64,000 nucleotides of DNA, from positions 455 to 64,454 of the IMG/VR virus record IMGVR_UViG_3300047476_002143; one strand, written 5' to 3'. The position numbers were made by a program, and so were the translations under genes. Below the pieces are notes generated by a model, which saw only the letters and a list, made by a program, of their open reading frames with translations, was not told the origin of the DNA and made no database searches. Positions 3,394 to 57,893 of the stretch are shown one piece after another. Within the stretch, counting starts at the first letter, position 1. Each line of letters starts with the position of its first letter. Source of the stretch: a virus (lineage: Duplodnaviria; Caudoviricetes).

Positions 3394-4167
3394 TTATTGT
3401 TTTTTTTTAAAAAAATTGTGAAACAAAGATAGTTCTTTTTTTTCATTTCGTAAACCAAAATAACTAGTCTTTCTACCATTCCAATTTTTTCCCATTTCAT
3501 TTATGGTTGAATTTTCAGAATCAAGATGAATTGCAATAATTTCAGGTATTAGTGCTCTATTTTTTCTTGACCATTTTTTTGCGAAAAGAACATCGGTTCT
3601 GTCTGCGGCTCCGTGTACTTCAGGATATTCATAAACTTTGGAAGTACCAGGGTGCCACATTTGAAAAAACCCAATTGGTTCATAACCCTCGGCCATATAT
3701 TCACCTATCCTAACACCCATCGGAAAAACAGTGGGGTGAATATAAACCCATCCTGTGTGAGTTTGTCTTGGTAAGGAAATGAACTCCATCCAGGATTCAA
3801 AATTTGGACACATCATTCTATCTATACCATATAGATTTCTTTCATCTAGGGAAATTCTCTCTAATATACCCCTTGTTAAGGGAGGTAGGTAGATATCAGC
3901 ATCTAAATGAATCACCCATCCTTTTTTTGAAAGTTTTTTCAATCCCGCATTAATCCCTTTGGCCTTATTGAATGGGTCTCCGTTTTTTGTAAATTCATCT
4001 GTGACAACGCACTCAACGTTGTAATACTCGCAAAGTTTCTGTGTTTGCTCATCTTCAGGTGATGTAACAACCACCAAATGATTGAACACCGTCTTATTAT
4101 ATGCTAAGGTATGAGACAAAAAATCACTGTAGTTTACGCAGACAATAACTCCTTCTAAAAACATCAT
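3394..4167 (-). CDS. Glycosyltransferase (GT-A / GT2-like)
   Basis: FNKAKGINAGL, WVIHLDADI (DxD), IGFFQM. Confidence 0.75.
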   Translation of the reverse strand: MMFLEGVIVCVNYSDFLSHTLAYNKTVFNHLVVVTSPEDEQTQKLCEYYNVECVVTDEFTKNGDPFNKAKGINAGLKKLSKKGWVIHLDADIYLPPLTRGILERISLDERNLYGIDRMMCPNFESWMEFISLPRQTHTGWVYIHPTVFPMGVRIGEYMAEGYEPIGFFQMWHPGTSKVYEYPEVHGAADRTDVLFAKKWSRKNRALIPEIIAIHLDSENSTINEMGKNWNGRKTSYFGLRNEKKELSLFHNFFKKKQ

Positions 4168-15914: not shown

Positions 15915-16403
15915 TTAATTAAAAAAAGTTTTTTGAAAGTCGTCCCAAACATTTTGCAACACGTAGTTATCGTTCATAATTGTTGGAACAAACGGTTTGT
16001 GACTCATTTTCATTTTGGCCTCTTCAGGTGTTCTGTTAGCCTTTTTGAGGTTACACTTGAAACAAGACGTAACAAGGTTCTCCCAAGTATTGAGACCCCC
16101 CTTCGATTTTGGAATTACGTGGTCAAGAGTTAATGATTTTTTGGAACCACAGTACACGCACTCATACCCGTCTCTTTTATATATTCTTGTTCTGTTTGCC
16201 CTATACGCTCTCTTGTGAAACTTAATATAATTCAATAGACGTATAATAAGAGGTCTAACGAACTTTTTAACACCACTAACAAGTTCTTTGATGTCACACT
16301 TAATTATCTCGGCTTTACCCTTATAAACAAGGTTAAACCCCCTTTGTATTGAGGTTACATTAAGTGGACTATAGTCAAAATTTAATACAAGTACCTGTTC
16401 CAT
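15915..16403 (-). CDS. HNH endonuclease (McrA/HNH_5-like)
   Basis: VLVLN.DY.PL, RD..C.YCG...TLDHVIPKS.GG..TWENLV..C..CN..K. Confidence 0.88.
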   Translation of the reverse strand: MEQVLVLNFDYSPLNVTSIQRGFNLVYKGKAEIIKCDIKELVSGVKKFVRPLIIRLLNYIKFHKRAYRANRTRIYKRDGYECVYCGSKKSLTLDHVIPKSKGGLNTWENLVTSCFKCNLKKANRTPEEAKMKMSHKPFVPTIMNDNYVLQNVWDDFQKTFFN

Positions 16404-16444
16404 TATTGGAATTATTTTGGCAAAGATATGTTTATTTGTTGAAT

Positions 16445-16473
16445 AAAAAAAGGGTCAGAAAATCCCGACCCTT
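16445..16473 (-). terminator. Attenuator-type intrinsic terminator of leader 3
   Basis: mRNA AAGGGUCGG-loop-CUGACCCUU followed by a U tract. Confidence 0.8.
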
Positions 16474-16485
16474 ATATGTTAATTT

Positions 16486-16578
16486 TTAACAATAGTTTAT
16501 GGTTCGGGACTTTCCACGTCTCGTTACAACCGAATTCTCATATTTAATCATCTTGTCCAAAAGACTCAACTTTATCAT
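16486..16578 (-). CDS. Putative leader peptide 3 (MIKLSLLDKMIKYENSVVTRRGKSRTINYC)
   Basis: 30-codon ORF after TATTTAT; its AAAGUCCCGA is complementary to the terminator 5' arm. Confidence 0.6.
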   Translation of the reverse strand: MIKLSLLDKMIKYENSVVTRRGKSRTINYC

Positions 16579-16641
16579 AACAATAAATATTAAGATGATT
16601 TTTGGAAGTTTAAATTAATTTTTTATCTTTGTGAAACAATT

Positions 16642-16715
16642 GGACCCGTAGCTCAGACGGTTAGAGCAGGAAACTCATAATTTCAAGGTCGTTGGTTCGA
16701 ATCCGACCGGGTCCA
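16642..16715 (+). tRNA. tRNA with CAT anticodon (Met or lysidine-Ile2)
   Basis: GGACCCG/CGGGTCC acceptor stem, CT-CAT-AA loop, TTCGAAT T loop; TATCTTTG promoter at about 16624. Confidence 0.85.
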
Positions 16716-16731
16716 CATAAAAAATATAAAT

Positions 16732-17106
16732 ATGGAATACGGTTACGGACCAGAAAAGCACATCATCGATGAAATAAAAAAATCGAGGGTTTTAATAGTA
16801 GTATCTTCATTAATATTGATTACGGTATTTGTTCTATTTTCAATTTGGGGTACATCAGAAATTATGGACTTGGACAAAAAGGAATTTCTTGTGGTTAACA
16901 AAAAGTTAAACAATATCACAACCGAAGTTGAATCTATTAGTTTGAAACAAGACCAAATGCAACAATCAATAAGTAATATTGAAAGCAAGATGGATAGTTC
17001 AATAATCATCTCACAATCAACAAACTCCAAGGTTAGTTCTTTGAATGGAAAAGTTGCAAGAGTTTCCGAAAATATGGACACAATTATTGTTTACATAAAA
17101 AAATAG
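16732..17106 (+). CDS. Membrane-anchored coiled-coil protein
   Basis: Single transmembrane helix followed by a heptad-like region. Confidence 0.65.
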   Translation: MEYGYGPEKHIIDEIKKSRVLIVVSSLILITVFVLFSIWGTSEIMDLDKKEFLVVNKKLNNITTEVESISLKQDQMQQSISNIESKMDSSIIISQSTNSKVSSLNGKVARVSENMDTIIVYIKK

Positions 17107-17110
17107 AATC

Positions 17111-17383
17111 ATGCCTTATATTGATATGGACATAGATGTTGAAGACTTTTTATATGCTTGTAGTCGAAGAGACATCAAAGAGTTAATTCAATCTCTTGTT
17201 GAAAACGACCATTTACCTAAAGAAGTGTTGAATAAAAATGGTGATGTCAAAGAAGATTTAGTTAGGAGAGGAAGAGGTGAAGACGATTTCTCAGATAAAC
17301 TTGAACAATTGAAAACAAAATACTATTCTTTAACACAGGAAGAAGAAGAGTTCTTTGATAGGGTTTTTAAGAAATATTTGTAA
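17111..17383 (+). CDS. Hypothetical protein
   Basis: ORF in operon. Confidence 0.65.
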   Translation: MPYIDMDIDVEDFLYACSRRDIKELIQSLVENDHLPKEVLNKNGDVKEDLVRRGRGEDDFSDKLEQLKTKYYSLTQEEEEFFDRVFKKYL

Positions 17384-17403
17384 GTAAGAGTATATTTATA
17401 AAC

Positions 17404-17475
17404 ATGATGAACATCGACTTAAATAAGTTTAATCCGGCACCTGCGAATGGTGATGGCAATCTTATGTCAAGTTGA
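17404..17475 (+). CDS. Putative leader peptide 1 (MMNIDLNKFNPAPANGDGNLMSS)
   Basis: 23-codon ORF after TATTTATA; stop codon overlaps the antiterminator strand; codons match the downstream tRNAs. Confidence 0.75.
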   Translation: MMNIDLNKFNPAPANGDGNLMSS

Positions 17476-17496
17476 GTTCGGTAAAATATTATGTTT

Positions 17497-17531
17497 AAAA
17501 AACCCTGAACTCTTAAGTTTGGGGTTTTTTT
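17497..17531 (+). terminator. Attenuator terminator before the tRNA-Pro/Asn/Asp/Gly/Ala cluster
   Basis: AAAAAACCCTGAAC-TCTTAA-GTTTGGGGTTTTTTT; alternative pairing of GAGTTCGG (17474-81) with CTGAACTC (17505-12). Confidence 0.8.
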
Positions 17532-17536
17532 ATGTT

Positions 17537-17611
17537 CGGGATGTAGTACAGTCCGGTTAGTATGCATGGTTTGGGACCATGAGGTCGCTGGTTCGAATCC
17601 AGCCATCCCGA
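17537..17611 (+). tRNA. tRNA-Pro(TGG)
   Basis: CGGGATG/CATCCCG acceptor, CATGG-TT-TGG-GA-CCATG. Confidence 0.93.
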
Positions 17612-17617
17612 CGGAAT

Positions 17618-17689
17618 GTCTCCTTAGCTCAGTGGTAGAGCATCTCGCTGTTAACGAGAGGGTCCAAGGTTCGAAACCTTGAGGGGACG
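17618..17689 (+). tRNA. tRNA-Asn(GTT)
   Basis: Cloverleaf, TCTCG-CT-GTT-AA-CGAGA, G73. Confidence 0.92.
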
Positions 17690-17695
17690 CAGAAC

Positions 17696-17767
17696 GGTCT
17701 CATAGTTAATCGGCTATAATATCCCCCTGTCACGGGGATGTGGCGGGTTCGATTCCCGCTGAGACCG
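17696..17767 (+). tRNA. tRNA-Asp(GTC)
   Basis: GGTCTCA/TGAGACC acceptor, TCCCC-CT-GTC-AC-GGGGA. Confidence 0.92.
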
Positions 17768-17771
17768 CAAC

Positions 17772-17981
17772 GAGTAAGAGATACTCAGAGTCTTTAATCC
17801 AAGACTTGAACAATGGATAGATGTTTAGTAGTATCAGTCGTAAATGACTACTCATGGGAATAACGTCGATAAACCTATCTTCGCCCAGTAAAGGTTGACT
17901 GTTTTTATGAGGGATGCCTCACAGGTTTTGGAACAGAACAAAAAACCGAAATAACTACTCACCCATAATCTCAAGGTGGGG
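17772..17981 (+). ncRNA. Unassigned structured RNA of about 210 nt inside tRNA cluster 1
   Basis: Several hairpins (GAGTA/TACTC, AGTCTT/AAGACT, AGTC/GACT, TGAGG/CCTCA), GC content above background, no long ORF. Confidence 0.5.
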
Positions 17982-17987
17982 AAACTT

Positions 17988-18059
17988 GCAGGTATAGCAC
18001 AAAGGTTAGTGCTCTAGTCTTCCAAACTAGAGATGCCGATTCGAGTTCGGCTACCTGCT
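17988..18059 (+). tRNA. tRNA-Gly(TCC)
   Basis: GCAGGTA/TACCTGC acceptor, CTAGT-CT-TCC-AA-ACTAG, U73. Confidence 0.92.
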
Positions 18060-18115
18060 CAGTGGGCCTTTGTGGAGGGCCGAAAGGAAAATAGGTTTTT
18101 TTCATCCACATTTAT

Positions 18116-18188
18116 GGGGTAGAAGCTCTAGTGGATGAGCACAAGATTTGCATTCTTGAGGTTGTGGATTCGAGTTCCACCTATTCCA
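18116..18188 (+). tRNA. tRNA-Ala(TGC)
   Basis: G3:U70 in the acceptor, CAAGA-TT-TGC-AT-TCTTG. Confidence 0.9.
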
Positions 18189-18227
18189 CAAGTATTTATT
18201 ACTAAATAAACTTGAAAAAAAAACAAA

Positions 18228-19151
18228 ATGAAAGTAAACTACAAATTGTTATCAGTTGTGTTCGGAGGGTTTCTAGTAGTATCCTTAGCTTACATCGTAT
18301 TCTTCACAAATAAATCTAACACAGTAATCAAAGAAAAGGAGATTCAATATGTTGAGGTTGTAAATTCTAAGACTGAACTCGAAATGGAGCATCAGTCCAC
18401 ATTGAAAAAATTAGGTGATGCCGAACTCAGAATCGATACTTTATCTGGACTGAATCTCAGTTCTAGTAAAGAAATCATGTCTCTCAAAAAGAAAGTTAAG
18501 TCTATACTTTATAAGTCGAATTTGACTAAAGAAGAGTTAACAACTGCAAAAGGATTGATTGTAGAACTTAATACTAAAATAGAGGACAGGATAAAAGAAA
18601 ATGAAATACTGAAGTCTAGTAATGTTAAATTGACTGAAGATAACACCAATCTCCAAATGGAGAAAAATCAATTGGTAAAAGTATTAGACTCCACAAAAGT
18701 AGAAAAAGAAAATGCAGACAATGTTATTGATTTGGGAAGTACTTTGTCAATTTCTAATCTAACGGTTGAAGGATTCAATATCAAAGGTAAAAAAACGGAT
18801 GTTGTTGAAAAAGTTCACAAGATGAAGTTTTCATTTGTTATAAACGAAAATAGAATTTCTTCAAATGGTGTAAAAACTGTTTATTTCATTCTTCTCAATC
18901 CTATTGGTAAGGAGGTTAAATTAGAAGGTAAATCAGGAATACTTAGTACCAAGAAAGATGGTGAAAAAATATATACATCAAGCTCATCTTTAGACTACAC
19001 AACAGGTTTAATCAAAAAGGCTAACTTCGAGGTAGAACTTTCTAAATTGTCTATGGATGGTATCTATAAAGTTCAAATATATGAGAATGGTTTCATGGTC
19101 GGTGAAAGCAAGGTTTTCTTTAAAAAGAAAAAATTACTCGGATTATTTTAA
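18228..19151 (+). CDS. Membrane-anchored coiled-coil protein with a C-terminal beta domain (Bacteroidota-like)
   Basis: N-terminal transmembrane helix, long coiled coil, Ig-like end (G.YKVQIYENG..VG). Confidence 0.7.
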   Translation: MKVNYKLLSVVFGGFLVVSLAYIVFFTNKSNTVIKEKEIQYVEVVNSKTELEMEHQSTLKKLGDAELRIDTLSGLNLSSSKEIMSLKKKVKSILYKSNLTKEELTTAKGLIVELNTKIEDRIKENEILKSSNVKLTEDNTNLQMEKNQLVKVLDSTKVEKENADNVIDLGSTLSISNLTVEGFNIKGKKTDVVEKVHKMKFSFVINENRISSNGVKTVYFILLNPIGKEVKLEGKSGILSTKKDGEKIYTSSSSLDYTTGLIKKANFEVELSKLSMDGIYKVQIYENGFMVGESKVFFKKKKLLGLF

Positions 19152-19159
19152 AATCATAT

Positions 19160-19187
19160 AAAAACCCTCCTCGTGAGGGTTTTTTTT
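19160..19187 (+). terminator. Intrinsic terminator
   Basis: AAAACCCTC-CTCGT-GAGGGTTTTTTT. Confidence 0.8.
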
Positions 19188-19200
19188 ATTATATTTGCGT

Positions 19201-19554
19201 ATGGCTCATCCAAACATTCACGCAAAATCCTCAGCAAAAAAATTTGGTGGTAAACCCGAAGATTATATCCATTTACACGAGTGGATGGACGAAACAAAGG
19301 CATGGTTTGGTGATTCACTTCACCGAATGTTTAGACATCATAGTGAGGGTATATTCGAAATGGAAAAAAGATTTGGCACAGAGTTCAAAAACTCAGATGG
19401 TAAAACCGTTTATACAAGGTATGTTGGAGAACAACATGTTAAAGAGGATTGTTTCAACTATATACCATCAGCCAAAGAATGGGTCGAAAATATATCCAAA
19501 AATCAAAGACCACAATGGATGTTAAGAACTGTTAAACTCGAGTTTGAAGACTAA
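19201..19554 (+). CDS. DUF6915-like protein
   Basis: MAHP..HA.SS..KFGG..EDY..LH.W.DE.K...D..HR..RHHSEGIF, EQHVKED. Confidence 0.7.
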   Translation: MAHPNIHAKSSAKKFGGKPEDYIHLHEWMDETKAWFGDSLHRMFRHHSEGIFEMEKRFGTEFKNSDGKTVYTRYVGEQHVKEDCFNYIPSAKEWVENISKNQRPQWMLRTVKLEFED

Positions 19555-19571
19555 AAGTTATATTTATTGTT

Positions 19572-20291
19572 ATGGAAAATAATTTTATATCAGAAGAAGA
19601 TGAAGTAGTATTACGTAAGGTCGCAAAATACCTTAAATCATATAATATGAGACAAGGAGTAATTCAAATAGAAAATGATTACTACCGTAATCCTGAAGAT
19701 TTGATTCGTAATCTTTCTAACTTTAGTAACAATTGGAGTGTTGAAATTCCTGATTTCTTTAGACCTTATTTATCTGAAATCATTGAAAAAAGTTTAAAAA
19801 ACTTGGAAAGATTTGATATGGATAACATCAGCTATGACCACATAGATTTAGAAATAAGTTCGGATAGTAATACTTTATGGATAACAAGATATTATGGTTA
19901 TGAAGAACCTGGTGATTCTAATGGACTAACTTGGGGTGATGACACAGAGGATACCGAGTTAGTTACTCGACTTTTGAACGAAATAAAGGAGTCTGGCGCC
20001 GAACCAGATGACGATGGTATTTTGCAATTAGACTTTAATGGTTCAGGGGATAGCGGATACTTAGAGGGTCAATTTTCAATAGGAAGTGGTAGAGTTCCAG
20101 CACATATCGAAGACTGGTGTTACGAGGTGTTAGAAAATAATTTCGGAGGTTGGGAAATAAATGAGGGTTCACAGGGGTATTTTATATTCAATGTCAAAAA
20201 CAGGGTTATAGAACTCGAGATTACCATGAATCAAATGGTAGAAGAAAGTGACGAAATCCTTTCAGTTAATTTTGGAAAACCCAAAGAATAA
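19572..20291 (+). CDS. DUF6878-like protein
   Basis: F.GSGDSG and GWEINEGSQG motifs. Confidence 0.65.
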   Translation: MENNFISEEDEVVLRKVAKYLKSYNMRQGVIQIENDYYRNPEDLIRNLSNFSNNWSVEIPDFFRPYLSEIIEKSLKNLERFDMDNISYDHIDLEISSDSNTLWITRYYGYEEPGDSNGLTWGDDTEDTELVTRLLNEIKESGAEPDDDGILQLDFNGSGDSGYLEGQFSIGSGRVPAHIEDWCYEVLENNFGGWEINEGSQGYFIFNVKNRVIELEITMNQMVEESDEILSVNFGKPKE

Positions 20292-20356
20292 TCGTATATT
20301 TGTATGGTTCTTTGAAATATTGCCCCTGTGGTGGAATAGGCAGACACGCAGGACTT

Positions 20357-21104
20357 TAGGTAGACACTAAGTTTTTTTACTTCTTCTCTTCCGTTTTCAG
20401 TATTACTGAATATTTATAATAAAATAATATTATGAATAGAAAGTATACGAAAGAGGGTCTTCAGGAAATCGCAAATAAATGTTTTTCATTTAGACAAATG
20501 ATTCTTGAACTTAATCTTAAAGAAACTGGAGGTAATTACGTAAATATTCAAAAACGTTGTAAAGAATTTGAGGTCGACACAAATCATTTTTTTGGACCAG
20601 CATGGAATAAGTTAGGACATCCGTTGTTCAATAAAAAAAATGGAACTCCGATTGAAAATTTTTTTATTAAAGGTGAGAAAAAAATTGCATCATCCAAAAT
20701 AAAAAATAGAATTCTTAATAACAATTTAAGAGAATATAAGTGTGAAATTTGTGGATTAACCGAATGGCTGGGACGAAGACTTGTAATTGAGTTACACCAC
20801 ATCAACGGAGACCCAACAGATAATAGATTACAAAATCTTCAAATGTTGTGCCCAAATTGTCATTCACAAACTCATAACTATTGTAAAAAAGAAGAATTAA
20901 GAAAGATTAATGTTTAATACAGAGTGCTTGAATGGAAACGTTCAAAGTAGAACCCCGTAAATTCGGTGAACCCTTTAACATGGGAATACCGAGCGAAGCC
21001 CGAAAGGGAACGTGTAGAGACTAGACACGGGGCACCTTTAACATGGTGAAGGTATAGTCCAGACCACAAACATTTATGATGGTAGTGAAAACTATAGTGG
21101 TAAG
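20357..21104 (+). mobile_element. Group I intron in the tRNA-Leu anticodon
   Basis: P AAATTCGGTGAA, Q AATACCGAGC, R GTAGAGACTAG, S AAGGTATAGTCC; terminal G at 21104. Confidence 0.88.
20432..20917 (+). CDS. Intron-encoded HNH homing endonuclease
   Basis: KCEICG..EW...LELHHINGD..DNRLQNLQMLCPNCHSQT; TATTTATA upstream at about 20411. Confidence 0.9.
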   Translation: MNRKYTKEGLQEIANKCFSFRQMILELNLKETGGNYVNIQKRCKEFEVDTNHFFGPAWNKLGHPLFNKKNGTPIENFFIKGEKKIASSKIKNRILNNNLREYKCEICGLTEWLGRRLVIELHHINGDPTDNRLQNLQMLCPNCHSQTHNYCKKEELRKINV

Positions 21105-21166
21105 AAAATCCTGTTCGCAGAAAAAGCGAGTACGAGTTCGATTCTCGTTGGGGGCACATAAAAAAT

Positions 21167-21270
21167 ACACATCGCTCAGAAATGAGGACTGGACAGACGC
21201 TATGTATGAAGAAAACGACACACTACGATAAAGGTAGTGAAAAGACAGTTTAACAGTACAGACGATGTGT
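21167..21270 (+). ncRNA. Unassigned structured RNA between the two tRNA-Leu genes
   Basis: ACACATCG/CGATGTGT closing stem, CTCA-GAAA-TGAG and CACTAC/GTAGTG hairpins. Confidence 0.5.
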
Positions 21271-21275
21271 TAATT

Positions 21276-21356
21276 GCCCCGATGGTGGAATGGTAGACAC
21301 GGCAGTTTTAGGAACTGTTGTCGCAAGACATGTCGGTTCGAGTCCGACTTGGGGTA
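21276..21356 (+). tRNA. tRNA-Leu(TAG)
   Basis: GCAGT-TT-TAG-GA-ACTGT, long variable arm. Confidence 0.92.
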
Positions 21357-21357
21357 C

Positions 21358-21702
21358 ATGAAAAAGTTAATTTTATTTTTTTTATTTTCTTTCTTTTTTC
21401 TGTCATGTGAGAAAGAAAGTTTTGATGTTGTATTCTTAAACGTAGGTTACTGTCGAATTCCTAACGGTGTGGAACTGAAATTTATTGTCGACGAAACATT
21501 ATCGGTAAAGAAATATGTTATTGAATCGGCAAAAGACATGTCGAGAAATTATACCGAATTGGCTTCAATAGAAAGTAGAAAAACTCAAGGTCAACAACTG
21601 TATAGTTACAAATTGGGTATGAATCGTCCTCTCATATATAGAATCAAAGCGGTTCATACAAATAAAAAAATACAATTTTCAAAAGAGTTTTTACTTAATT
21701 AA
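21358..21702 (+). CDS. Putative lipoprotein
   Basis: MKKLILFFLFSFFFLSC lipobox; the true start lies after the tRNA. Confidence 0.7.
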   Translation: MKKLILFFLFSFFFLSCEKESFDVVFLNVGYCRIPNGVELKFIVDETLSVKKYVIESAKDMSRNYTELASIESRKTQGQQLYSYKLGMNRPLIYRIKAVHTNKKIQFSKEFLLN

Positions 21703-21738
21703 TAGTTTTTATATATTTGTTAGATAATTATATAGTAC

Positions 21739-21834
21739 ATGAACAACACATCAAAACATATCGTCATTAGTAAACAACAGTTTAGTTGTTGGTATTGTCA
21801 TATGCTTACCTGTAGTTCATCATTAGTTAGTTAA
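21739..21834 (+). CDS. Putative leader peptide 2 (MNNTSKHIVISKQQFSCWYCHMLTCSSSLVS)
   Basis: 31-codon ORF after a TATATTTG promoter (21712-19); CTGTAGTTC (21810-18) pairs with the terminator 5' arm. Confidence 0.75.
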   Translation: MNNTSKHIVISKQQFSCWYCHMLTCSSSLVS

Positions 21835-21857
21835 GTTCCTGAAGACTTATATACACG

Positions 21858-21891
21858 ACCCCGAACTACAGAAATGTATTCGGGGTTTTTT
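21858..21891 (+). terminator. Attenuator terminator before tRNA cluster 2
   Basis: ACCCCGAACTACA-GAAA-TGTATTCGGGGT plus T tract. Confidence 0.85.
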
Positions 21892-21898
21892 ATTTTTG

Positions 21899-21907
21899 GT
21901 TCTTTGA
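21899..21907 (+). promoter_or_regulatory. boxA-like antitermination motif GTTCTTTGA
   Basis: The same 9-mer lies upstream of the tRNA-Leu unit (20307) and of the tmRNA (42544-52, minus strand). Confidence 0.55.
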
Positions 21908-21931
21908 CATATTGGTTGTAAATTTGTAAAA

Positions 21932-22012
21932 CAAAACACGGGTGGCTCCCTTAATAGTTAAGGCTGACCTTAAGCATCTACCGAAAGGTATACAGGGGGC
22001 GAAAGTGTTTTG
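21932..22012 (+). ncRNA. Unassigned structured RNA of about 80 nt
   Basis: CAAAACAC/GTGTTTTG, GCTCCC/GGGGGC, TTAAGG/CCTTAA, TACC-GAAA-GGTA. Confidence 0.5.
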
Positions 22013-22018
22013 ATTGAT

Positions 22019-22089
22019 AGTCCTTTGGTGTAGCGGTAACACAGAAGTATTTGGAGCTTCTTTCCTTGGTTCGAATCCAAGAGGGACTA
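22019..22089 (+). tRNA. tRNA-Gln(TTG)
   Basis: GAAGT-AT-TTG-GA-GCTTC, AGTCCTT/AGGGACT acceptor. Confidence 0.88.
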
Positions 22090-22090
22090 C

Positions 22091-22215
22091 AAAGATATAC
22101 ACTGAAAAGTGTTGTTAGCAATTCGGAATAGTACGGAACGAGTAATAATTCTACAAACTCCTTCTGAGCGAAATCCTTAGGTTGTAGAGGCAGTGGAGCA
22201 ACACCACATATCTTT
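22091..22215 (+). ncRNA. Unassigned structured RNA of about 125 nt
   Basis: AAAGATAT/ATATCTTT, GTGTTGTT/AGCAACAC and CTACAA/TTGTAG nested stems. Confidence 0.45.
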
Positions 22216-22223
22216 TCAAAAAT

Positions 22224-22311
22224 AGTCAGGTGATGAAATGGTATTAAGGTGGAGGTATGACGCAGTAATGTAGTCCCAAAACAGTTACAGGTTCGAATCC
22301 TGTCCTGACTT
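22224..22311 (+). ncRNA. tRNA-like element without a canonical anticodon arm
   Basis: Perfect AGTCAGG/CCTGACT acceptor and ACAGG-TTCGAAT-CCTGT T arm, irregular middle. Confidence 0.65.
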
Positions 22312-22317
22312 CAATAT

Positions 22318-22392
22318 TGTCTCGTAGCTCAGTTGGTTGAGAGCGTTTGCCTGATACGCAAGAGGTCGTCGGTTCGAGTCCGACCGAGACAA
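22318..22392 (+). tRNA. tRNA-Ile(GAT)
   Basis: TTGC-CT-GAT-AC-GCAA, TGTCTCG/CGAGACA acceptor. Confidence 0.92.
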
Positions 22393-22408
22393 CTCAAAAT
22401 AACAACAA

Positions 22409-22762
22409 ATGAAAATACCTTCAATTAAAATTGCCGAATGGAAATTTTTCGGAAGACGTACTGTTGGCCTTACAATATTCCCATTCATTTTTATCAGGGA
22501 ATCATATGCGGATAAAATAAATGACGAAAAATTGAGTCAAATTATAAATCATGAGTCAATTCATATTATACAACAAAAAGAGTTACTCGTCATTATTTTT
22601 TACTTGTGGTATTTTTTGGAGTTTTCTATAAGATATCTGAAAACATTTAATTTTGACAAAGCTTACTACTCAATTTCCTTTGAAAAGGAGGCTTATGAAA
22701 ATGAAAAAAATTCGGAATACATAAAAAATAGAAAACTTTGGAGTTTTTTAAAATATCTTTAA
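22409..22762 (+). CDS. Bacteroidota-type small membrane protein with an HExxH motif
   Basis: GLTIFPFIF, INHESIH..QQKEL, AY..ISFE.EAY. Confidence 0.7.
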   Translation: MKIPSIKIAEWKFFGRRTVGLTIFPFIFIRESYADKINDEKLSQIINHESIHIIQQKELLVIIFYLWYFLEFSIRYLKTFNFDKAYYSISFEKEAYENEKNSEYIKNRKLWSFLKYL

Positions 22763-22769
22763 TTTGAAG

Positions 22770-22842
22770 GGTGACGTAGCTCAGTTGGTAGAGCACTTGC
22801 CTGAAGAGCAAGGTGTCGTCAGTTCGATTCTGACCGTTACCA
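22770..22842 (+). tRNA. tRNA-Phe(GAA)
   Basis: CTTGC-CT-GAA-GA-GCAAG. Confidence 0.92.
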
Positions 22843-22847
22843 CAGGA

Positions 22848-22950
22848 TGTTAAGTAGTGGATATGTAAGCGGGCTCAAGCTCGGTAAGTCGAAATGGGTT
22901 ATGATTCTCTTTACGAGACCACATTGTGGGTTCGAGCCCCACCTTAACAA
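22848..22950 (+). ncRNA. tRNA-like element with an expanded, rearranged core
   Basis: TGTTAAG/CTTAACA acceptor, GTGGG-TTCGAGC-CCCAC T arm, internal hairpins including TCTC-TTTAC-GAGA. Confidence 0.6.
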
Positions 22951-22955
22951 CAAAC

Positions 22956-23058
22956 AGTCGGACGGTGATTCGTTCTAAAGTAAGCCGTCTCCAAGCTTTT
23001 GGTAAAAGAGATGAACGCCTAATTCGAAAACTACTAAGTTCGAATCCTGTCCCGACTT
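22956..23058 (+). pseudogene. Degenerate tRNA-like element related to 22224-22311
   Basis: AGTCGG/CCGACT ends and a GTTCGAATCCTGTCC tail; T stem mismatched. Confidence 0.5.
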
Positions 23059-23074
23059 ATAAAAAAGATTTTTT

Positions 23075-23224
23075 ATGAAAGAAGAAATAGTTTGTCCTCA
23101 TTGTGGAGAAAAAGAAAACTTTCACTTCAATTACGACTACGCACAAACACACATGCCGATTATAAATGTATTGTGTAATGAATGTGGTGAATATTTTGAA
23201 ATGAAAGAACAACCGACCTCTTAG
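23075..23224 (+). CDS. Small zinc-ribbon protein (49 aa)
   Basis: CPHCG...CNECG; not in the ORF track; the 3' end overlaps the start of tRNA-Lys. Confidence 0.65.
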   Translation: MKEEIVCPHCGEKENFHFNYDYAQTHMPIINVLCNECGEYFEMKEQPTS

Positions 23225-23288
23225 CTCAGTTGGTTAGAGCACTTCACTTTTAATGAAGGAGTCCCGCGTTCGAGTCGCGGAGGGGTCA
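23215..23288 (+). tRNA. tRNA-Lys(TTT)
   Basis: CTTCA-CT-TTT-AA-TGAAG. Confidence 0.92.
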
Positions 23289-23358
23289 CAAAAAAATTTA
23301 AGAAGAAATTTGTTCTTCATAAGAAAAATGATTATGTTTTTCTTAAAATAAATTTTTT

Positions 23359-23772
23359 ATGAAAAAGGTAATCGTTCTTCTCATCTCATCAGTTCTTCTC
23401 TTTTCTTGTACTAAAGAAAACAAAACAATCCAATCCAAAAAAAGTAATGTCCTATTGAACGACTCTTTAATTTCTTCGAAAAATAAACAAACCATAAATG
23501 GTACAACTTTGGTTGCAGAATTTAATCCAAAAACAGGTCAGATTTTAATCGTTGAAGAAAAAAATACATCTCTCGACCTGATGGTTAGGTACCAATCGTA
23601 TAAGGGAAATAATTTAGTACTGAATAGTAATATTAATTATGGTAATTATATTTCTCCTTTTGTAGTACTTGGGTACCCATCTATTCCTAGAGGAATGAAA
23701 TATATGGTCAAAATCCAAGTCAAAACTATTTCAGGTGATTTTCAGTTTATTTTTCAGGGAAATAAGAAATAA
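23359..23772 (+). CDS. Putative lipoprotein
   Basis: MKKVIVLLISSVLLFSC lipobox. Confidence 0.7.
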   Translation: MKKVIVLLISSVLLFSCTKENKTIQSKKSNVLLNDSLISSKNKQTINGTTLVAEFNPKTGQILIVEEKNTSLDLMVRYQSYKGNNLVLNSNINYGNYISPFVVLGYPSIPRGMKYMVKIQVKTISGDFQFIFQGNKK

Positions 23773-23839
23773 TCCCTTATTTTTGTAAAACAAATTAAAA
23801 CCATGATATTTTATCATGGTTTTTTATTAAATTACGTAT

Positions 23840-24442
23840 ATGATAGACAATTTGGAGTTGATTAAACCATTATTAAATTTTGAAGACCAAGAAGATTTTT
23901 ATATGTTATACATCTTCAAAAGAAAAAAAGACCAACCTGAAGATGAAAGGGATAATCACCAATCGGTTAGGACAATTAAGAGTTATTGCGTTAGCAATCT
24001 TGAATACCTTGATAAAAGATACGATGAGATTAAACAATTGTGTGAAATTTTCAAAGCCAGAGCGTATATTCATGTTCAAAAACAAAACCACCGAGATGTT
24101 TCTTTGAGTATGATGGTGGAATTGGCCCAAAAAATACAATTTGGTGTTCATTACCAACAATATCTTTTTGATTCAGTCGTGGGTCAGTTGAAAACTCATG
24201 AAAAAAGATGGATTGTGGATTTGGATACTACTGATGAGAATGAAGTTGTAAGAATGACTAAGGTTATAAATGTCACAAGACCTGAAGGTGATAAAATTGA
24301 GGCGATTATCCCAACGAAGAATGGTTATCATTTTATTACAAAGAGATTTGATGTTGAGATGTTTAGAAATGTTTATCCACATATTGATATACAAAAGAAA
24401 AATCCAACTTTGTTATATCTACCAAAATCCTTATCTTTGTAA
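23840..24442 (+). CDS. Conserved phage protein with primase-polymerase-like motifs
   Basis: WIVDLD (DxD) and PTKNGYHFIT. Confidence 0.55.
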   Translation: MIDNLELIKPLLNFEDQEDFYMLYIFKRKKDQPEDERDNHQSVRTIKSYCVSNLEYLDKRYDEIKQLCEIFKARAYIHVQKQNHRDVSLSMMVELAQKIQFGVHYQQYLFDSVVGQLKTHEKRWIVDLDTTDENEVVRMTKVINVTRPEGDKIEAIIPTKNGYHFITKRFDVEMFRNVYPHIDIQKKNPTLLYLPKSLSL

Positions 24443-24443
24443 T

Positions 24444-24617
24444 ATGAAGGTGATGATTAAGAAAGATAGTACTGACATATGTCCATACCTTTACGAAGGT
24501 TCAGTACTACAAAACGTCAGAGAAACTAAGAAAAATTATATTGGTATTTTTTCTTCGTTTGCTGGTTCTTATGAAGTCAAAGTTCCAAAAACAAGAGCAA
24601 AAAAACTTGAAAAATGA
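24444..24617 (+). CDS. Hypothetical protein
   Basis: ATG just after a TATCTTTG motif (24432-39). Confidence 0.55.
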   Translation: MKVMIKKDSTDICPYLYEGSVLQNVRETKKNYIGIFSSFAGSYEVKVPKTRAKKLEK

Positions 24618-24847
24618 AAGCAATACTTGAATTCAATTTACCCGATGACCAACAAGACTTTCAACTCGCATCGAATGCTATGAAATTTTGGTCTGTTTTG
24701 TACGAATTGGACCAAGACCTCAGAACAAAAACTAAATATGCATCTGACGACTTACCACAAGACAAATATGATGCATATGAGGAAGTTAGAGATATGTTGC
24801 ATGAACTTATGAGAAATGAAAATATAAGTCTGGATATGGTCTCATAG
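24614..24847 (+). CDS. Conserved phage hypothetical protein
   Basis: MKAILEFNLPDD N-terminus common in phages. Confidence 0.7.
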   Translation: MKAILEFNLPDDQQDFQLASNAMKFWSVLYELDQDLRTKTKYASDDLPQDKYDAYEEVRDMLHELMRNENISLDMVS

Positions 24848-24855
24848 GTTTATAT

Positions 24856-24929
24856 GGTGGACGTAGCTCAGTTGGTAGAGCACTAGTTTGTGGCACTAGT
24901 TGTCGTGGGTTCGACTCCCATCGTTCACA
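24856..24929 (+). tRNA. tRNA-His(GTG)
   Basis: CTAGT-TT-GTG-GC-ACTAG, encoded G-1. Confidence 0.92.
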
Positions 24930-24936
24930 CAATAAT

Positions 24937-25010
24937 GGTCAGATACCCAAGTGGCTTAAGGGGAGGCTCTGCAAAAGCTTTATACGTCGGTTCGAATCCG
25001 ACTCTGACCT
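24937..25010 (+). tRNA. tRNA-Cys(GCA)
   Basis: AGGCT-CT-GCA-AA-AGCTT, U73. Confidence 0.92.
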
Positions 25011-25024
25011 CAAAAAAATTTATC

Positions 25025-25294
25025 ATGGAAGTATCGATGGATGGATTGAGAAAACGTTTGATTGGTGACTATAACTCACTTACAAAAAAGTTGAATAGGA
25101 ATATCAAAGACAAATCTCATGACCCTCAAATTATAATCGACCCTGATTATATTAGTAGGGAAATGGATGGTATCAGAAGTGCAATCATCACTTTGGCTTT
25201 CAGTTATATTGATGGCGTTGAAGGATTCGGAGTATTACCTGAGGATTTAGAGTTTGAAGTTTTTAATCCCGAAGATGATGAAGATGAAGAATAA
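25025..25294 (+). CDS. Hypothetical protein
   Basis: Start moved to the ATG after tRNA-Cys. Confidence 0.6.
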   Translation: MEVSMDGLRKRLIGDYNSLTKKLNRNIKDKSHDPQIIIDPDYISREMDGIRSAIITLAFSYIDGVEGFGVLPEDLEFEVFNPEDDEDEE

Positions 25295-25589
25295 GTTGTA
25301 TATTTGCAATGATAGTTTTGGTAGTAGAATAAACGCTGGTGATATTGTGGAATTGTGTATGGAGTGGGAAATGTCATCAACATGGACATCAAAAGTATAT
25401 TGGAATGTGTTAGATGGTGCATTTGTAGATGCTCACCCAGGGCGTGTGAAGTTGGGTTTGGCATTTCACAGAAACTTGAGAGAGTTTATAGATAGAGAAC
25501 CAATGAAAATTGAGAATGAGGATGGTGAGATTGAAGTTCTTAAAACATATTGTAAGAAAGTTAAAAATAAAAAAATACGTGTGTGGTGA
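25284..25589 (+). CDS. Hypothetical protein
   Basis: ORF overlapping the upstream stop; 3' end overlaps tRNA-Trp. Confidence 0.5.
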   Translation: MKNKLYICNDSFGSRINAGDIVELCMEWEMSSTWTSKVYWNVLDGAFVDAHPGRVKLGLAFHRNLREFIDREPMKIENEDGEIEVLKTYCKKVKNKKIRVW

Positions 25590-25647
25590 AACGGTATCAT
25601 GAATCTCTCCAAAAGATTTGTTTCTCGTTCGAATCGAGACACACGTG
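25577..25647 (+). tRNA. tRNA-Trp(CCA)
   Basis: ACGTGTG/CACACGT acceptor, AATCT-CT-CCA-AA-AGATT. Confidence 0.9.
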
Positions 25648-25648
25648 C

Positions 25649-25731
25649 ACATACATCACAATCAGTCAAGCCACATTTAGCTGTCAGTGTATGTAAGATG
25701 AGAGAAGGAGGTGGCTGGGACATTCTCTCAT
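25649..25731 (+). ncRNA. Two-hairpin RNA with a possible kissing-loop pseudoknot
   Basis: ACATACAT/GTGTATGT and ATGAGAGAA/TTCTCTCAT stems; complementary loop segments AGCCAC/GTGGCT. Confidence 0.55.
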
Positions 25732-25737
25732 AAAATT

Positions 25738-25868
25738 TATAGGTTGATTGGGGAAGGGACTATATTAAAACCTGGTGATGGGTGGGTTTATAGTTCGGAG
25801 TTGGAATCATCATAGTAATGCCAATCGTAAAAGGAGTTGTCCACGCGACCATCTTCTCCTTTCCTATA
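25738..25868 (+). ncRNA. Unassigned multi-stem RNA of about 130 nt
   Basis: TATAGG/CCTATA, GATTGG/CCAATC, ACTATA/TATAGT, AAAGGAG/CTCCTTT. Confidence 0.55.
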
Positions 25869-25871
25869 TTT

Positions 25872-25953
25872 GGGAGTATCGCCTAGCGGCAATGGCAGAA
25901 GACTGTAAATCTTCCCTCTTTTGAGTTCGTTGGTTCGAGTCCAGCTACTCCCA
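25872..25953 (+). tRNA. tRNA-Tyr(GTA)
   Basis: GAAGA-CT-GTA-AA-TCTTC, variable arm. Confidence 0.92.
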
Positions 25954-26091
25954 CAACTATTTATTTTTATGAGAAAAAAATTTAACAAATTCAAAGTCAA
26001 AATTGTTGAATGTTATCGATTCTTACAATTTATCGAAAGTAAAAGACTCGAACTCATGGAAAGAGCAACGTGGGGAAAATTCTGAAATATT

Positions 26092-42142: not shown

Positions 42143-42537
42143 TGGTGGAGATGGACGGATTCGAACCGTCGTCTTGTTTGCGATAACTATAAATGACTAC
42201 ACGTTTAGTACAACATTGGTTCTCAATGTTACGAAATATCAGGTTTGATGTTTGTGAGAAACCCACCTGTAAACAACTTGGTCTCAGAGTTATTTTAAGG
42301 GAGCTCTGACCTGTGACCCCCATATCGGACTTCTGTTCCTAGGTACACGTCCTAATCGACCCGAAACGTTGTTCTCTACGATTACGCAGCAACAACAACA
42401 GCTTCTCTAGTCAAGCCAAGAGTAGCCATTTTAGCAAAAGTATTGCCATTTGTTTTTTAAATCAGTTTTGAAGGAGTTAATTCAGCTCCTACGTGCCACT
42501 TATACCTATACACACCAATCGATACCATGTCATCCCC
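42143..42537 (-). ncRNA. ssrA: tmRNA
   Basis: 5' GGGGATGAC..TCGA, 3' T arm and CATCTCCACCA, G3:U pair, tag ORF at 42382-42447 ending VVVAA-stop. Confidence 0.92.
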
Positions 42538-57711: not shown

Positions 57712-57893
57712 GAATTTTTAATTTTTTGTGTATAAACCGCTTTTAAAATCTGTTTTCTTTTGATTACAGATTTTTTTGTATACTCCTTTTTGTCATGCAA
57801 TTTTTGTTGTTGCTTGGTTTTTATAACCTTAGACTTGAGTACTTTGAGGGCTCTTTCGATACTATCTTTTCCTTTTATTTCAACAATTAACAT
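57708..57893 (-). CDS. rpsU: Ribosomal protein bS21
   Basis: MLIVEIK..DSIERALK.LK.K..KT.....L...KEY.K.SV..R....KA.Y, Bacteroidota-like. Confidence 0.9.
   Translation of the reverse strand: MLIVEIKGKDSIERALKVLKSKVIKTKQQQKLHDKKEYTKKSVIKRKQILKAVYTQKIKNS

What the first reader, a model, noticed from the sequence alone, without database searches (positions are those of the whole stretch)
16445..25953. Candidate new system: leader-peptide attenuators that sense tRNA shortage and switch on phage tRNA arrays
Seen: three 23-31 codon ORFs (17404-17475 +, 21739-21834 +, 16486-16578 -) share one layout of promoter motif, leader ORF, an 8-10 nt segment near the ORF end complementary to the 5' arm of an intrinsic terminator, then the terminator. 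Two sit directly before tRNA clusters and their codons list the amino acids of those tRNAs. The lists contrast: leader 1 has no H/Q/C/W/Y and leader 2 has no P/A/G/D. Established: this is the geometry of trp/his/ilv-type attenuation, which normally controls amino-acid biosynthesis genes, and phage tRNAs can rescue translation after host anticodon nucleases act. Inference: stalling on depleted or cleaved tRNAs frees the antiterminator and induces the matching replacement tRNAs, giving a multi-input sensor of the tRNA pool. I do not know of this being described for phage tRNA arrays.
Basis: partly seen in the sequence, partly recalled or inferred. Interest (0 to 1): 0.95.

Follow-up and report, generated by a model that had tools for sequence, protein, structure and literature searches.

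The report
Leader-peptide attenuators before phage tRNA arrays
A giant freshwater phage places a tiny translated "test" gene and a switchable transcription stop in front of its tRNA gene blocks, each test gene written in the amino acids whose tRNAs follow, so it probably makes more of those tRNAs when ribosomes read these codons slowly.

Summary

The window is a fragment of a bS21-encoding huge phage with Bacteroidota-type promoters. In 80 related IMG/VR loci the same units recur.
- Leader residues match their own tRNA block far better than another block of the same phage: 0.67 against 0.23, own higher in 70 of 72 swaps.
- The match exists only in the ORF's frame.
- It follows gains and losses of tRNAs on independent branches: 57 against 13 pairs, 38 equal.
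- The antiterminator helix shows compensatory changes.

Leader 3 is a conserved small unit, but its ORF and its antiterminator pairing are not conserved.

Caveats:
- A consensus promoter lies between terminator 2 and its array.
- Codon-level matching is only partial.
- There are no expression data.

Five literature searches found no description. This scan has noted the same system before on other phage DNA.

Verdict: a real new variant of leader-peptide attenuation; the mechanism is inferred.

The parts
17391..17398 (+). Promoter-like motif TATATTTA, 5 nt before the leader 1 start codon
   Evidence: Read. The same TATATTTA(T) motif precedes type A leaders in relatives. Its function is inferred.
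17404..17475 (+). Leader ORF 1 (type A), 23 codons, core NPAPANGDGN
   Evidence: Homologous leaders stand before Pro-Asn-Asp-Gly-Thr-Ala arrays in 43 related loci.
17474..17481 (+). Segment 2 of leader 1 (antiterminator strand GAGTTCGG), overlapping the TGA stop
   Evidence: Its duplex with 17504-17512 is -11.6 kcal/mol. The fold without the 3' arm is -8.4, z -1.7. Family covariation of GTTC[R]G with C[Y]GAAC is shown.
17500..17531 (+). Intrinsic terminator 1 (stem 17503-11 / 17516-24, then seven T). tRNA-Pro starts 5 nt after the T-run.
   Evidence: -13.1 kcal/mol, z -3.7.
17537..18189 (+). tRNA array 1: Pro(tgg), Asn(gtt), Asp(gtc), a 218-nt spacer, Gly(tcc), Ala(tgc)
21712..21719 (+). -7 box TATATTTG of the leader 2 promoter
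   Evidence: Relatives carry TTG-N19-TATCTTTG at the same place.
21739..21834 (+). Leader ORF 2 (type C), 31 codons
   Evidence: It is homologous in 41 distinct sequences (alignment A3). The ATG is invariant, and indels before column 80 are multiples of 3.
21741..21748 (+). Segment 1 (GAACAACA) at codons 1-4, able to pair with segment 2
   Evidence: fold of 21736-21822 gives -16.1 kcal/mol, z -1.9. The family register is 83.6% paired. The window's own register is not conserved.
21775..21792 (+). Conserved hairpin made by the Gln-Gln and Cys-Trp codons (CAACA / TGTTG)
   Evidence: RNAalifold consensus.
21810..21818 (+). Segment 2 of leader 2 (CTGTAGTTC)
21859..21891 (+). Intrinsic terminator 2 (hairpin 21859-85, T-run 21886-91). 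Segment 3 is 21863-71.
   Evidence: -17.7 kcal/mol, z -4.7; 90.4% of cells paired.
21896..21926 (+). Consensus Bacteroidota-type promoter motif TTG-N20-TAAATTTG between terminator 2 and the array
   Evidence: 8 full motifs on the + strand of the window against 2.2 in shuffles. The motif is conserved behind type C terminators.
22019..25954 (+). tRNA array 2: Gln, Ile, Phe, Lys, His, Cys, Trp, Tyr, interspersed with small ORFs and three tRNA-like elements. Arg, Arg and Ser follow to 27797.
16450..16578 (-). 'Leader 3': a conserved small ORF or RNA with a terminator, upstream of an HNH gene and clpP. Not shown to belong to the tRNA system.

Best explanation
Leaders 1 and 2 are most likely ribosome-mediated (leader-peptide) transcription attenuators in front of phage tRNA gene blocks.

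How it would work:
- Each unit is transcribed from its own promoter.
- A ribosome reads a 23-31 codon ORF written largely in the amino acids whose tRNAs lie downstream.
- If decoding is slow at any of these codons, the ribosome stays upstream of segment 2. Segment 2 then pairs with the 5' arm of the terminator, and RNA polymerase runs on into the tRNA genes.
- If decoding is fast, the ribosome reaches the stop codon. It then covers segment 2 or sits between segments 2 and 3, so the terminator forms.
- Without translation, segment 1 holds segment 2 and the terminator also forms.

The net effect is feedback: the phage makes more of a tRNA block when those tRNAs are limiting. Two to four such units divide the 20 amino acids among them in this phage family.

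Shown here: the anatomy, its conservation, the tracking of tRNA content by leader content, and helix covariation.

Inferred: translation, termination, read-through and the physiological trigger.
For: (1) Family. 80 related loci were fetched. 124 of 127 CCCYGAAC-type terminators have an ATG ORF of at least 15 codons ending within 70 nt upstream, against 1556 of 5000 random positions.

(2) Match to the tRNA block.
- The share of leader residues with a tRNA in the own unit is 0.671, against 0.226 for another unit of the same phage. Own is higher in 70 and lower in 2 of 72 swaps.
- The ORF frame gives 0.637. Other frames give 0.33-0.42, and 7186 chance-ORF comparisons give 0.393.

(3) Covariation with the tRNA set, on a tree built from two other genes.
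- Presence or absence: 22.2 same direction, 2.2 opposite, 63.6 unchanged, p 3.6e-5.
- Copy number: 57.1 more, 12.9 fewer, 38 equal, p 1e-7.
- Cases: the window lacks tRNA-Thr in array 1 and has no Thr codon, while the other type A leaders average 4.8.
- L091 lacks tRNA-Pro there and its leader has no Pro. Its Pro tRNA sits behind a third leader that has three Pro.
- L077 lacks Asp in both leader and array.
- The window's nearest relative, L014, has S16G, Y19F, C20R(CGC) and H21N, together with Gly, Arg(acg) and Asn tRNAs and no Tyr tRNA.
- Leu/Arg-rich leaders precede Leu-Arg-Leu blocks.

(4) Structure.
- Antiterminator 2:3: 85.7% of cells paired against 26-41% when slid; 6 of 11 pairs changed on both sides; 0 of 500 shuffles reach the observed values for cells paired, cells changed on both sides and the covariation score (14 and 45 of 500 for the two counts of pairs and pair types).
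- GTTC[R] with C[Y]GAAC: paired in 62 of 66 units (A-T 37, G-C 23), 0 of 1000 shuffles as high.
- Helix 1:2: 83.6% paired.
- In leader 2 the antiterminator (-17.2) and the terminator (-17.7) have nearly equal energy.

(5) tRNA-Pro starts 5 nt after terminator 1, which leaves no room for a separate promoter.

(6) Ser and Arg codons fall in the box served by the unit's own anticodon: 31:1 (10.9 expected) and 52:15 (35.1 expected).
Against: - A full-consensus promoter motif lies between terminator 2 and array 2 (21896-21926). It also lies behind all type C and some type A terminators in relatives. Read-through is therefore not required for tRNA expression there.
- Array 2 in the window spans 4 kb with ORFs, further promoter-like motifs and a hairpin at 23797-23823. 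Read-through reaching His, Cys, Trp and Tyr is uncertain.
- Gly, Ile and Leu codons show no box-level match (18:20, 34:16, 2:10). In leader 1, GGT and GGC are not cognate to Gly(tcc) by strict wobble.
- Most independent pairs show no change in presence or absence (63.6 of 88). Ala in type A gives 1.2 same against 1.0 opposite.
- Gln-Gln persists in all 36 type C leaders although only 78% of units have tRNA-Gln. Those codons form a hairpin.
- Thr and Asn are common in type C leaders without matching tRNAs.
- The stop codon lies a median 16 nt after the segment 2 core, so a terminating ribosome may not cover segment 2.
- Leader 2's composition alone is not unusual in the window.
- Leader 1's antiterminator is weak (-8.4, 10 of 200 shuffles fold as well).
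- tRNAs were called by ARAGORN only, and unit limits follow a rule of mine.
- Rows from related phages are not independent.
Confidence: 0.72

Rival explanations
1. The units are independent small genes, encoding a micropeptide or an sRNA. Each has its own promoter and terminator and merely sits beside the tRNA arrays by conserved gene order. The terminators only insulate the tRNA promoters.
For: Each unit has its own promoter-like motif and a terminator, followed in type C by a consensus promoter. Part of the peptide is conserved (..H-I/M-V-F-S-x-Q-Q-x-x-C-W-Y-E..). Leader 3 shows that such small units exist here without tRNAs behind them.
Against: This reading does not predict the frame-specific match to the tRNA block. 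It does not predict the changes that follow tRNA gain and loss, nor the covarying segment 2:segment 3 helix that competes with the terminator. Close relatives differ by 4 non-synonymous and 1 synonymous change in the leader. In the window tRNA-Pro abuts terminator 1.
Confidence: 0.12
2. Translation-dependent switches whose output is not tRNA supply. For example, read-through could modulate the downstream promoter by interference, or it could time tRNA expression in the infection cycle, with the codon content acting as a general gauge of translation capacity.
For: A promoter lies directly behind the terminator in type C. The alternative helices are conserved. The encoded bS21 suggests that the phage remodels translation (abstract of PMC9723584).
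Against: In the window, L017, L033 and L070 the type A terminator abuts tRNA-Pro with no promoter in between. Read-through can only add tRNA transcripts there. The specific tracking of each amino acid fits feedback on the same tRNAs better.
Confidence: 0.1
3. Chance small ORFs in AT-rich spacers before ordinary terminators.
For: Small ORFs are common: 31% of random positions meet the same rule. Leader 2's composition is unremarkable on its own.
Against: 124 of 127 family terminators carry such an ORF. The ATG is invariant in 41 and in 27 distinct sequences. Searches also argue against chance.
Confidence: 0.02

Closest known systems
Leader-peptide transcription attenuators of enterobacterial amino-acid operons (trpL, hisL, pheL, leuL, and the multivalent thrL and ilvL). 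Named from my own knowledge; no paper on them was read here apart from the listing of PMC3082878.
   Same: A short translated ORF with regulatory codons, an intrinsic terminator, a mutually exclusive antiterminator helix that uses the terminator's 5' arm, and a helix between the start of the ORF and segment 2.
   Different: The genes behind the terminator are tRNA genes, not biosynthetic enzymes. One leader holds codons for 5-13 different amino acids rather than 1-3. The leaders of one phage divide the amino acids among them. The setting is a phage of Bacteroidota with no Shine-Dalgarno use. A promoter often follows the terminator.
T-box riboswitches (sensing of uncharged tRNA, recalled)
   Same: They sense tRNA status and switch a terminator against an antiterminator.
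   Different: No T-box match appears in Rfam at E up to 0.1. Here the signal lies in an open reading frame and is specific to that frame. There is no specifier loop or T-box motif.
pheM/pheST and thrS-type control of aminoacyl-tRNA synthetase genes (recalled)
   Same: Translation-linked control of a component of the decoding apparatus.
   Different: Those control synthetases for a single amino acid. Here tRNA genes themselves are controlled, for many amino acids at once.

Membership tests
Ribosome-mediated leader-peptide attenuator | A short ORF in the transcript upstream of the controlled genes | tested here: met
   124 of 127 family terminators have such an ORF against 31% of random positions. 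The ATG is invariant.
Ribosome-mediated leader-peptide attenuator | The ORF is enriched in codons for the quantity being sensed | tested here: met
   Own unit 0.671 against other unit 0.226. The match is frame-specific and tracks tRNA gain and loss. At codon level it holds only for Ser and Arg.
Ribosome-mediated leader-peptide attenuator | An intrinsic terminator between the ORF and the controlled genes | tested here: met
Ribosome-mediated leader-peptide attenuator | An antiterminator helix that excludes the terminator | tested here: met
   85.7% of cells paired, 6 pairs with compensatory change; covariation at 4 positions. One search gives the energies.
Ribosome-mediated leader-peptide attenuator | A helix 1:2 that sequesters segment 2 when the ORF is not translated | tested here: inconclusive
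   The family register is 83.6% paired, with 3 pairs changed on both sides. The window's own register is not conserved. Type A was not tested.
Ribosome-mediated leader-peptide attenuator | The stop codon is placed so that a finishing ribosome prevents 2:3 pairing | tested here: inconclusive
   The stop lies -10 to +28 nt (median 16) after the segment 2 core and 23-42 nt before the terminator. This fits a ribosome sitting between segments 2 and 3, but that is not shown.
Ribosome-mediated leader-peptide attenuator | The controlled genes depend on read-through, with no promoter behind the terminator | tested here: inconclusive
   Met for leader 1 (5 nt to tRNA-Pro). Not met for leader 2, which has a consensus promoter motif at 21896-21926.
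Ribosome-mediated leader-peptide attenuator | Read-through shown to respond to ribosome stalling | not testable with these tools
   No RNA run holding the stretch was listed. No cultured phage is known to me.
T-box riboswitch | Match to the T-box covariance model (specifier loop, T-box motif) | tested here: not met
   Rfam scan of 14000-45000 at E up to 0.1: only tRNA, tmRNA and weak unrelated hits.

The most novel reading that the evidence does not exclude
The phage carries a set of multi-input sensors of the tRNA pool that divide the genetic code among them. Each one detects slow decoding at any of up to about 13 amino acids and switches on exactly the replacement tRNAs. This would give the phage autonomous homeostasis of its decoding apparatus. 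It would also give an inducible answer to host tRNA depletion or anticodon-nuclease defence.
Probability: 0.25. Interest if true: 0.95.

Novelty: new variant of a known kind. Interest (0 to 1): 0.87.

Why it matters
Phage tRNA genes are usually discussed as constitutive helpers for codon usage or as spare parts after host tRNA cleavage. How their expression is controlled is largely unknown.

A leader-peptide attenuator whose codons list the tRNAs behind it would be the first case known to me of tRNA genes regulated by the decoding speed of their own codons. It would be a direct feedback loop on tRNA supply. It would also extend classical attenuation to Bacteroidota phages and to leaders that sense many amino acids at once.

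The system is compact, widespread in a large family of lake phages, and directly testable with reporter fusions. The leader sequences could also serve as a marker for which tRNAs a phage treats as one regulatory unit.

Tried and rejected
Searches and structures that led nowhere:
- Megablast of 16400-26000 against GenBank phages found only a 67-nt tRNA-Gly match.
- A search with the 90-aa protein upstream of leader 1 found no relatives.
- The 307-aa protein gave one relative (L009) with different gene order.
- The helix 1:2 in the window's own register is not conserved: 56.8% paired, no covariation.
- RNAalifold on A3 predicts only the Gln-Gln/Cys-Trp hairpin and the terminator.
- Alignment A4 (type A) misaligns segment 2 in several rows, so I did not run the count of structure pairs on it. 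I used anchored counts over all types instead.

Leader 3 as a member of the system was rejected:
- The ORF is absent in L084, L086 and L090.
- Antiterminator duplexes average -7.97 kcal/mol against -5.74 (sd 2.32) for shuffles. Only the window is strong, at -16.0.

Expression: no RNA holder was listed for the stretch. I therefore did not use read laying.

Data handling:
- Two ORFs picked by my rule are spurious: L017 5042, which overlaps the end of the 239-aa gene, and L049, which has no tRNAs. They were kept where they passed the filters, and dropped.
- Units at a locus end with under 5 kb of room were dropped.
- L047 and L067 lack the second marker gene and are not in the tree.

Literature: five searches found no paper on leader-peptide control of tRNA genes. 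Of PMC9723584 I saw the abstract, the outline and the passages that hold 'tRNA'. It has no occurrence of 'leader', 'attenuat' or 'terminator'. Its supplements were not seen. All other papers were seen as search listings only.


Full report
WHAT IS IN THE WINDOW

The window is nearly all of a 64,454-base IMG/VR virus record that CheckV rates 21% complete. It encodes a tmRNA, 21 tRNAs by ARAGORN and a tRNA-Leu(taa) with a 748-nt intron. It also encodes ribosomal protein bS21. That places it among the bS21-encoding huge phages of freshwater Bacteroidota (abstract of PMC9723584).

Leader 1 (17404-17475) ends inside GAGTTCGG (17474-81). This segment can pair with 17504-12, the 5' arm of a terminator (stem 17503-11 / 17516-24, seven T). 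tRNA-Pro starts 5 nt after the T-run.

Leader 2 (21739-21834) carries CTGTAGTTC (21810-18), complementary to GAACTACAG (21863-71) in the terminator 21859-85. Folded without the 3' arm this antiterminator reaches -17.2 kcal/mol (z -4.35). The terminator reaches -17.7.

Is it more than chance in the window alone?
- Leader 1 is. None of 424 chance small ORFs reaches its 0.59 share of P/N/D/G/A, and its run of 10 such residues compares with a chance maximum of 5.
- Leader 2 is not unusual by composition. 124 of 424 chance ORFs reach its share.
- The contrast between the two leaders gives Fisher p 2.4e-4.

RELATIVES

GenBank phages hold nothing similar. A conserved 119-aa DUF6915 protein retrieved 80 IMG/VR loci, some from contigs of 317-326 kb.

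The leader 2 region is conserved in about 55 of them by blastn. The leader 3 region is conserved in many. Leader 1 matches only through its terminator.

A pattern for terminators of the form CCCYGAAC...GTTYRGGG-T5 finds 127 sites, 2-3 per locus in most loci, almost all on the + strand. 124 of them have an ATG ORF of at least 15 codons ending within 70 nt upstream. The same rule is met at 1556 of 5000 random positions.

THREE TYPES OF UNIT

- Type A (leader 1 homologues, 43 loci) stands before Pro-Asn-Asp-Gly-Thr-Ala blocks. Its leaders are rich in exactly these residues, plus Leu and Arg.
- Type B (12 loci by my rule, one of them a spurious ORF) has leaders with 7-9 Leu and 4-5 Arg in 22 codons. 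It stands before Leu(taa)-Arg(tct)-Leu(tag).
- Type C (leader 2 homologues, 57 loci) stands before Glu, Val, Phe, Lys, Cys, Trp, Tyr, Met, Gln, Arg(acg), His, Ser and Ile.

Together the blocks cover the 20 amino acids.

THE MATCH BETWEEN LEADER AND tRNA BLOCK

In 72 within-phage swaps, the share of leader residues that have a tRNA in the own unit is 0.671. For another unit of the same phage it is 0.226. Own is higher in 70 swaps and lower in 2.

The signal is specific to the reading frame:
- ORF frame: 0.637.
- The +1 and +2 frames: 0.373 and 0.328.
- Reverse-strand frames: 0.34-0.42.
- 7186 chance-ORF comparisons: 0.393.

TRACKING OF tRNA GAIN AND LOSS

The tree was built from two neighbouring protein genes (79 rows).
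- Pairs of phages that differ in the presence of a tRNA, and share no branch, change the leader's presence or absence of that amino acid the same way 22.2 times. They change it the other way 2.2 times and not at all 63.6 times (p 3.6e-5).
- By copy number, the phage with the tRNA has more copies in 57.1 pairs, fewer in 12.9 and equal numbers in 38 (p 1e-7). For residues 2-22 the counts are 58.0, 7.8 and 42.2.

Concrete cases:
- The window's array 1 has no tRNA-Thr and leader 1 has no Thr. The other type A leaders average 4.8 Thr.
- L091 has no tRNA-Pro in its type A block and no Pro in that leader. Its tRNA-Pro sits in a block split off from type C, behind a third leader with three Pro.
- L077 lacks both tRNA-Asp and Asp codons.
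- L068 and L081 gained tRNA-Asn, and their leader has four Asn where L065 has one.
- L014, the window's nearest relative, differs from leader 2 by S16G, Y19F, C20R (CGC) and H21N. Its block has Gly, Arg(acg) and Asn tRNAs and no Tyr tRNA.

STRUCTURE

On the alignment of 41 distinct type C sequences (A3):
- The antiterminator helix is paired in 85.7% of cells, against 26-41% when slid. 6 of 11 pairs show change on both sides (24 cells). For cells paired, cells changed on both sides and the covariation score, 0 of 500 shuffles reach the observed values.
- That is as good as the terminator itself: 90.4% paired, 3 pairs changed on both sides.
- A helix between codons 2-4 and segment 2 is paired in 83.6% of cells, with 3 pairs changed on both sides.

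Anchored on the GTTC core across all types (66 of 72 units have it), the base after GTTC pairs with the Y of CYGAAC in 62 of 66 units (A-T 37, G-C 23). Three positions on the other side also exceed all 1000 shuffles.

Own segment 2 to terminator-arm duplexes average -11.43 kcal/mol. With the arms of other units they average -8.99, and with shuffled segments -6.41.

Evidence that the element is both RNA and ORF:
- Segment 2 is conserved as nucleotides in different reading frames (for example L019 against L037).
- The ATG is invariant.
- The four indels in the first two thirds of the ORF are of 3, 3, 3 and 6 nt.

This is what a translated RNA switch should look like.

MECHANISM

I commit to classical ribosome-mediated attenuation.
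- A ribosome delayed at any regulatory codon stays upstream of segment 2. Segment 2 then captures the terminator's 5' arm.
- A ribosome that finishes the ORF covers segment 2 or separates it from segment 3.
- An untranslated leader folds 1:2.

The output is read-through into tRNA genes for the same amino acids, which is a feedback loop on tRNA supply. Every step after the anatomy is inferred.

WHAT SPEAKS AGAINST IT OR LIMITS IT

1. A full Bacteroidota-type promoter motif (TTG-N18-20-TAnnTTTG) lies at 21896-21926 between terminator 2 and array 2. There are 8 such motifs on the + strand of the window against 2.2 in shuffles. The motif recurs behind all type C and some type A terminators. For those arrays the attenuator can only be an additional input. 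In the window's type A unit, and in L017, L033 and L070, no such promoter fits.
2. Array 2 of the window is stretched to 4 kb by inserted ORFs.
3. Codon-level matching is strong for Ser (31:1, 10.9 expected) and Arg (52:15, 35.1 expected). It is absent for Gly, Ile and Leu.
4. Some leader residues are fixed by RNA structure rather than by tRNAs: Gln-Gln and Cys-Trp form a hairpin, and Thr at codons 3-4 is segment 1.
5. The stop codon lies a median 16 nt behind the segment 2 core.
6. tRNAs come from ARAGORN only, and the unit limits are my rule.
7. No expression data are available.

LEADER 3

It is a conserved small unit on the minus strand, in 29 distinct relatives. It has a GATATTTAT motif, an ORF of about 30-35 codons, a covarying GAGA/TCTC hairpin and a terminator. 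A TAnnTTTG promoter and an HNH gene follow.

The ORF is missing in three lineages. I do not count it as part of the system.

COMPARISON WITH WHAT IS KNOWN, AND NOVELTY

The anatomy is that of the trp, his, thr and ilv leader-peptide attenuators (recalled). It is not a T-box.

The differences:
- The controlled genes are tRNAs.
- One leader holds codons for 5-13 amino acids.
- The leaders of one phage divide the amino acids among them.
- A promoter often follows the terminator.

Five full-text searches found no description. The paper on these phages does not mention leaders, attenuation or terminators.

This scan has noted the same system on other phage genomes before, including one note that stresses the downstream promoter. 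Those notes are not independent evidence. What I report rests on my own calls.

I rate it a new variant of a known kind, of high interest, with the mechanism still to be shown.

Noticed in passing
window 20322-21157: tRNA-Leu(taa) is interrupted after the anticodon region by a 748-nt intron carrying an HNH endonuclease ORF (20432-20917). Relatives L012 and L013 have a 26-nt insert at the same site, and G001 has none.
   Followed up: partly
window 16450-16578 (-): 'Leader 3' is a conserved small ORF or RNA unit with a covarying GAGA/TCTC hairpin and its own terminator, upstream of an HNH gene and clpP. Its function is unknown.
   Followed up: partly
window 21896-21926 and 20306-20322: A strongly conserved spacer, GGTTCTTTGAAATATTGGTTG, lies inside the promoter-like motif behind type C terminators. 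It also lies directly before tRNA-Leu(taa). It is more conserved than a promoter spacer needs to be and may be a regulator site.
   Followed up: no
window 22224-22311, 22848-22950, 22955-23062: Three tRNA-like elements with acceptor and T arms but odd cores (Rfam tRNA 30.3 and 23.9 bits for the first two). Relatives carry Glu, Val, Ser(tga), Met and Arg(acg) tRNAs in this array, which the window lacks.
   Followed up: no
window 25740-25870; L010 about 3590-3720 (-): A spacer RNA richer in G+C next to tRNA-Trp is conserved between the window and G001, although the flanking tRNAs differ.
   Followed up: no
window 17769-17987: A 218-nt spacer of unknown nature lies between tRNA-Asp and tRNA-Gly inside array 1. 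It has no Rfam match.
   Followed up: no
window about 57726-57884 (-), 42143-42537 (-): The phage encodes ribosomal protein bS21 (Pfam 32.4 bits) and a tmRNA.
   Followed up: partly
L016 9215 and relatives: In some type A units the terminator loop GTTGAAA supplies the -33 TTG of a promoter TTG-N19-TATCTTTG. Terminator and promoter overlap there.
   Followed up: no
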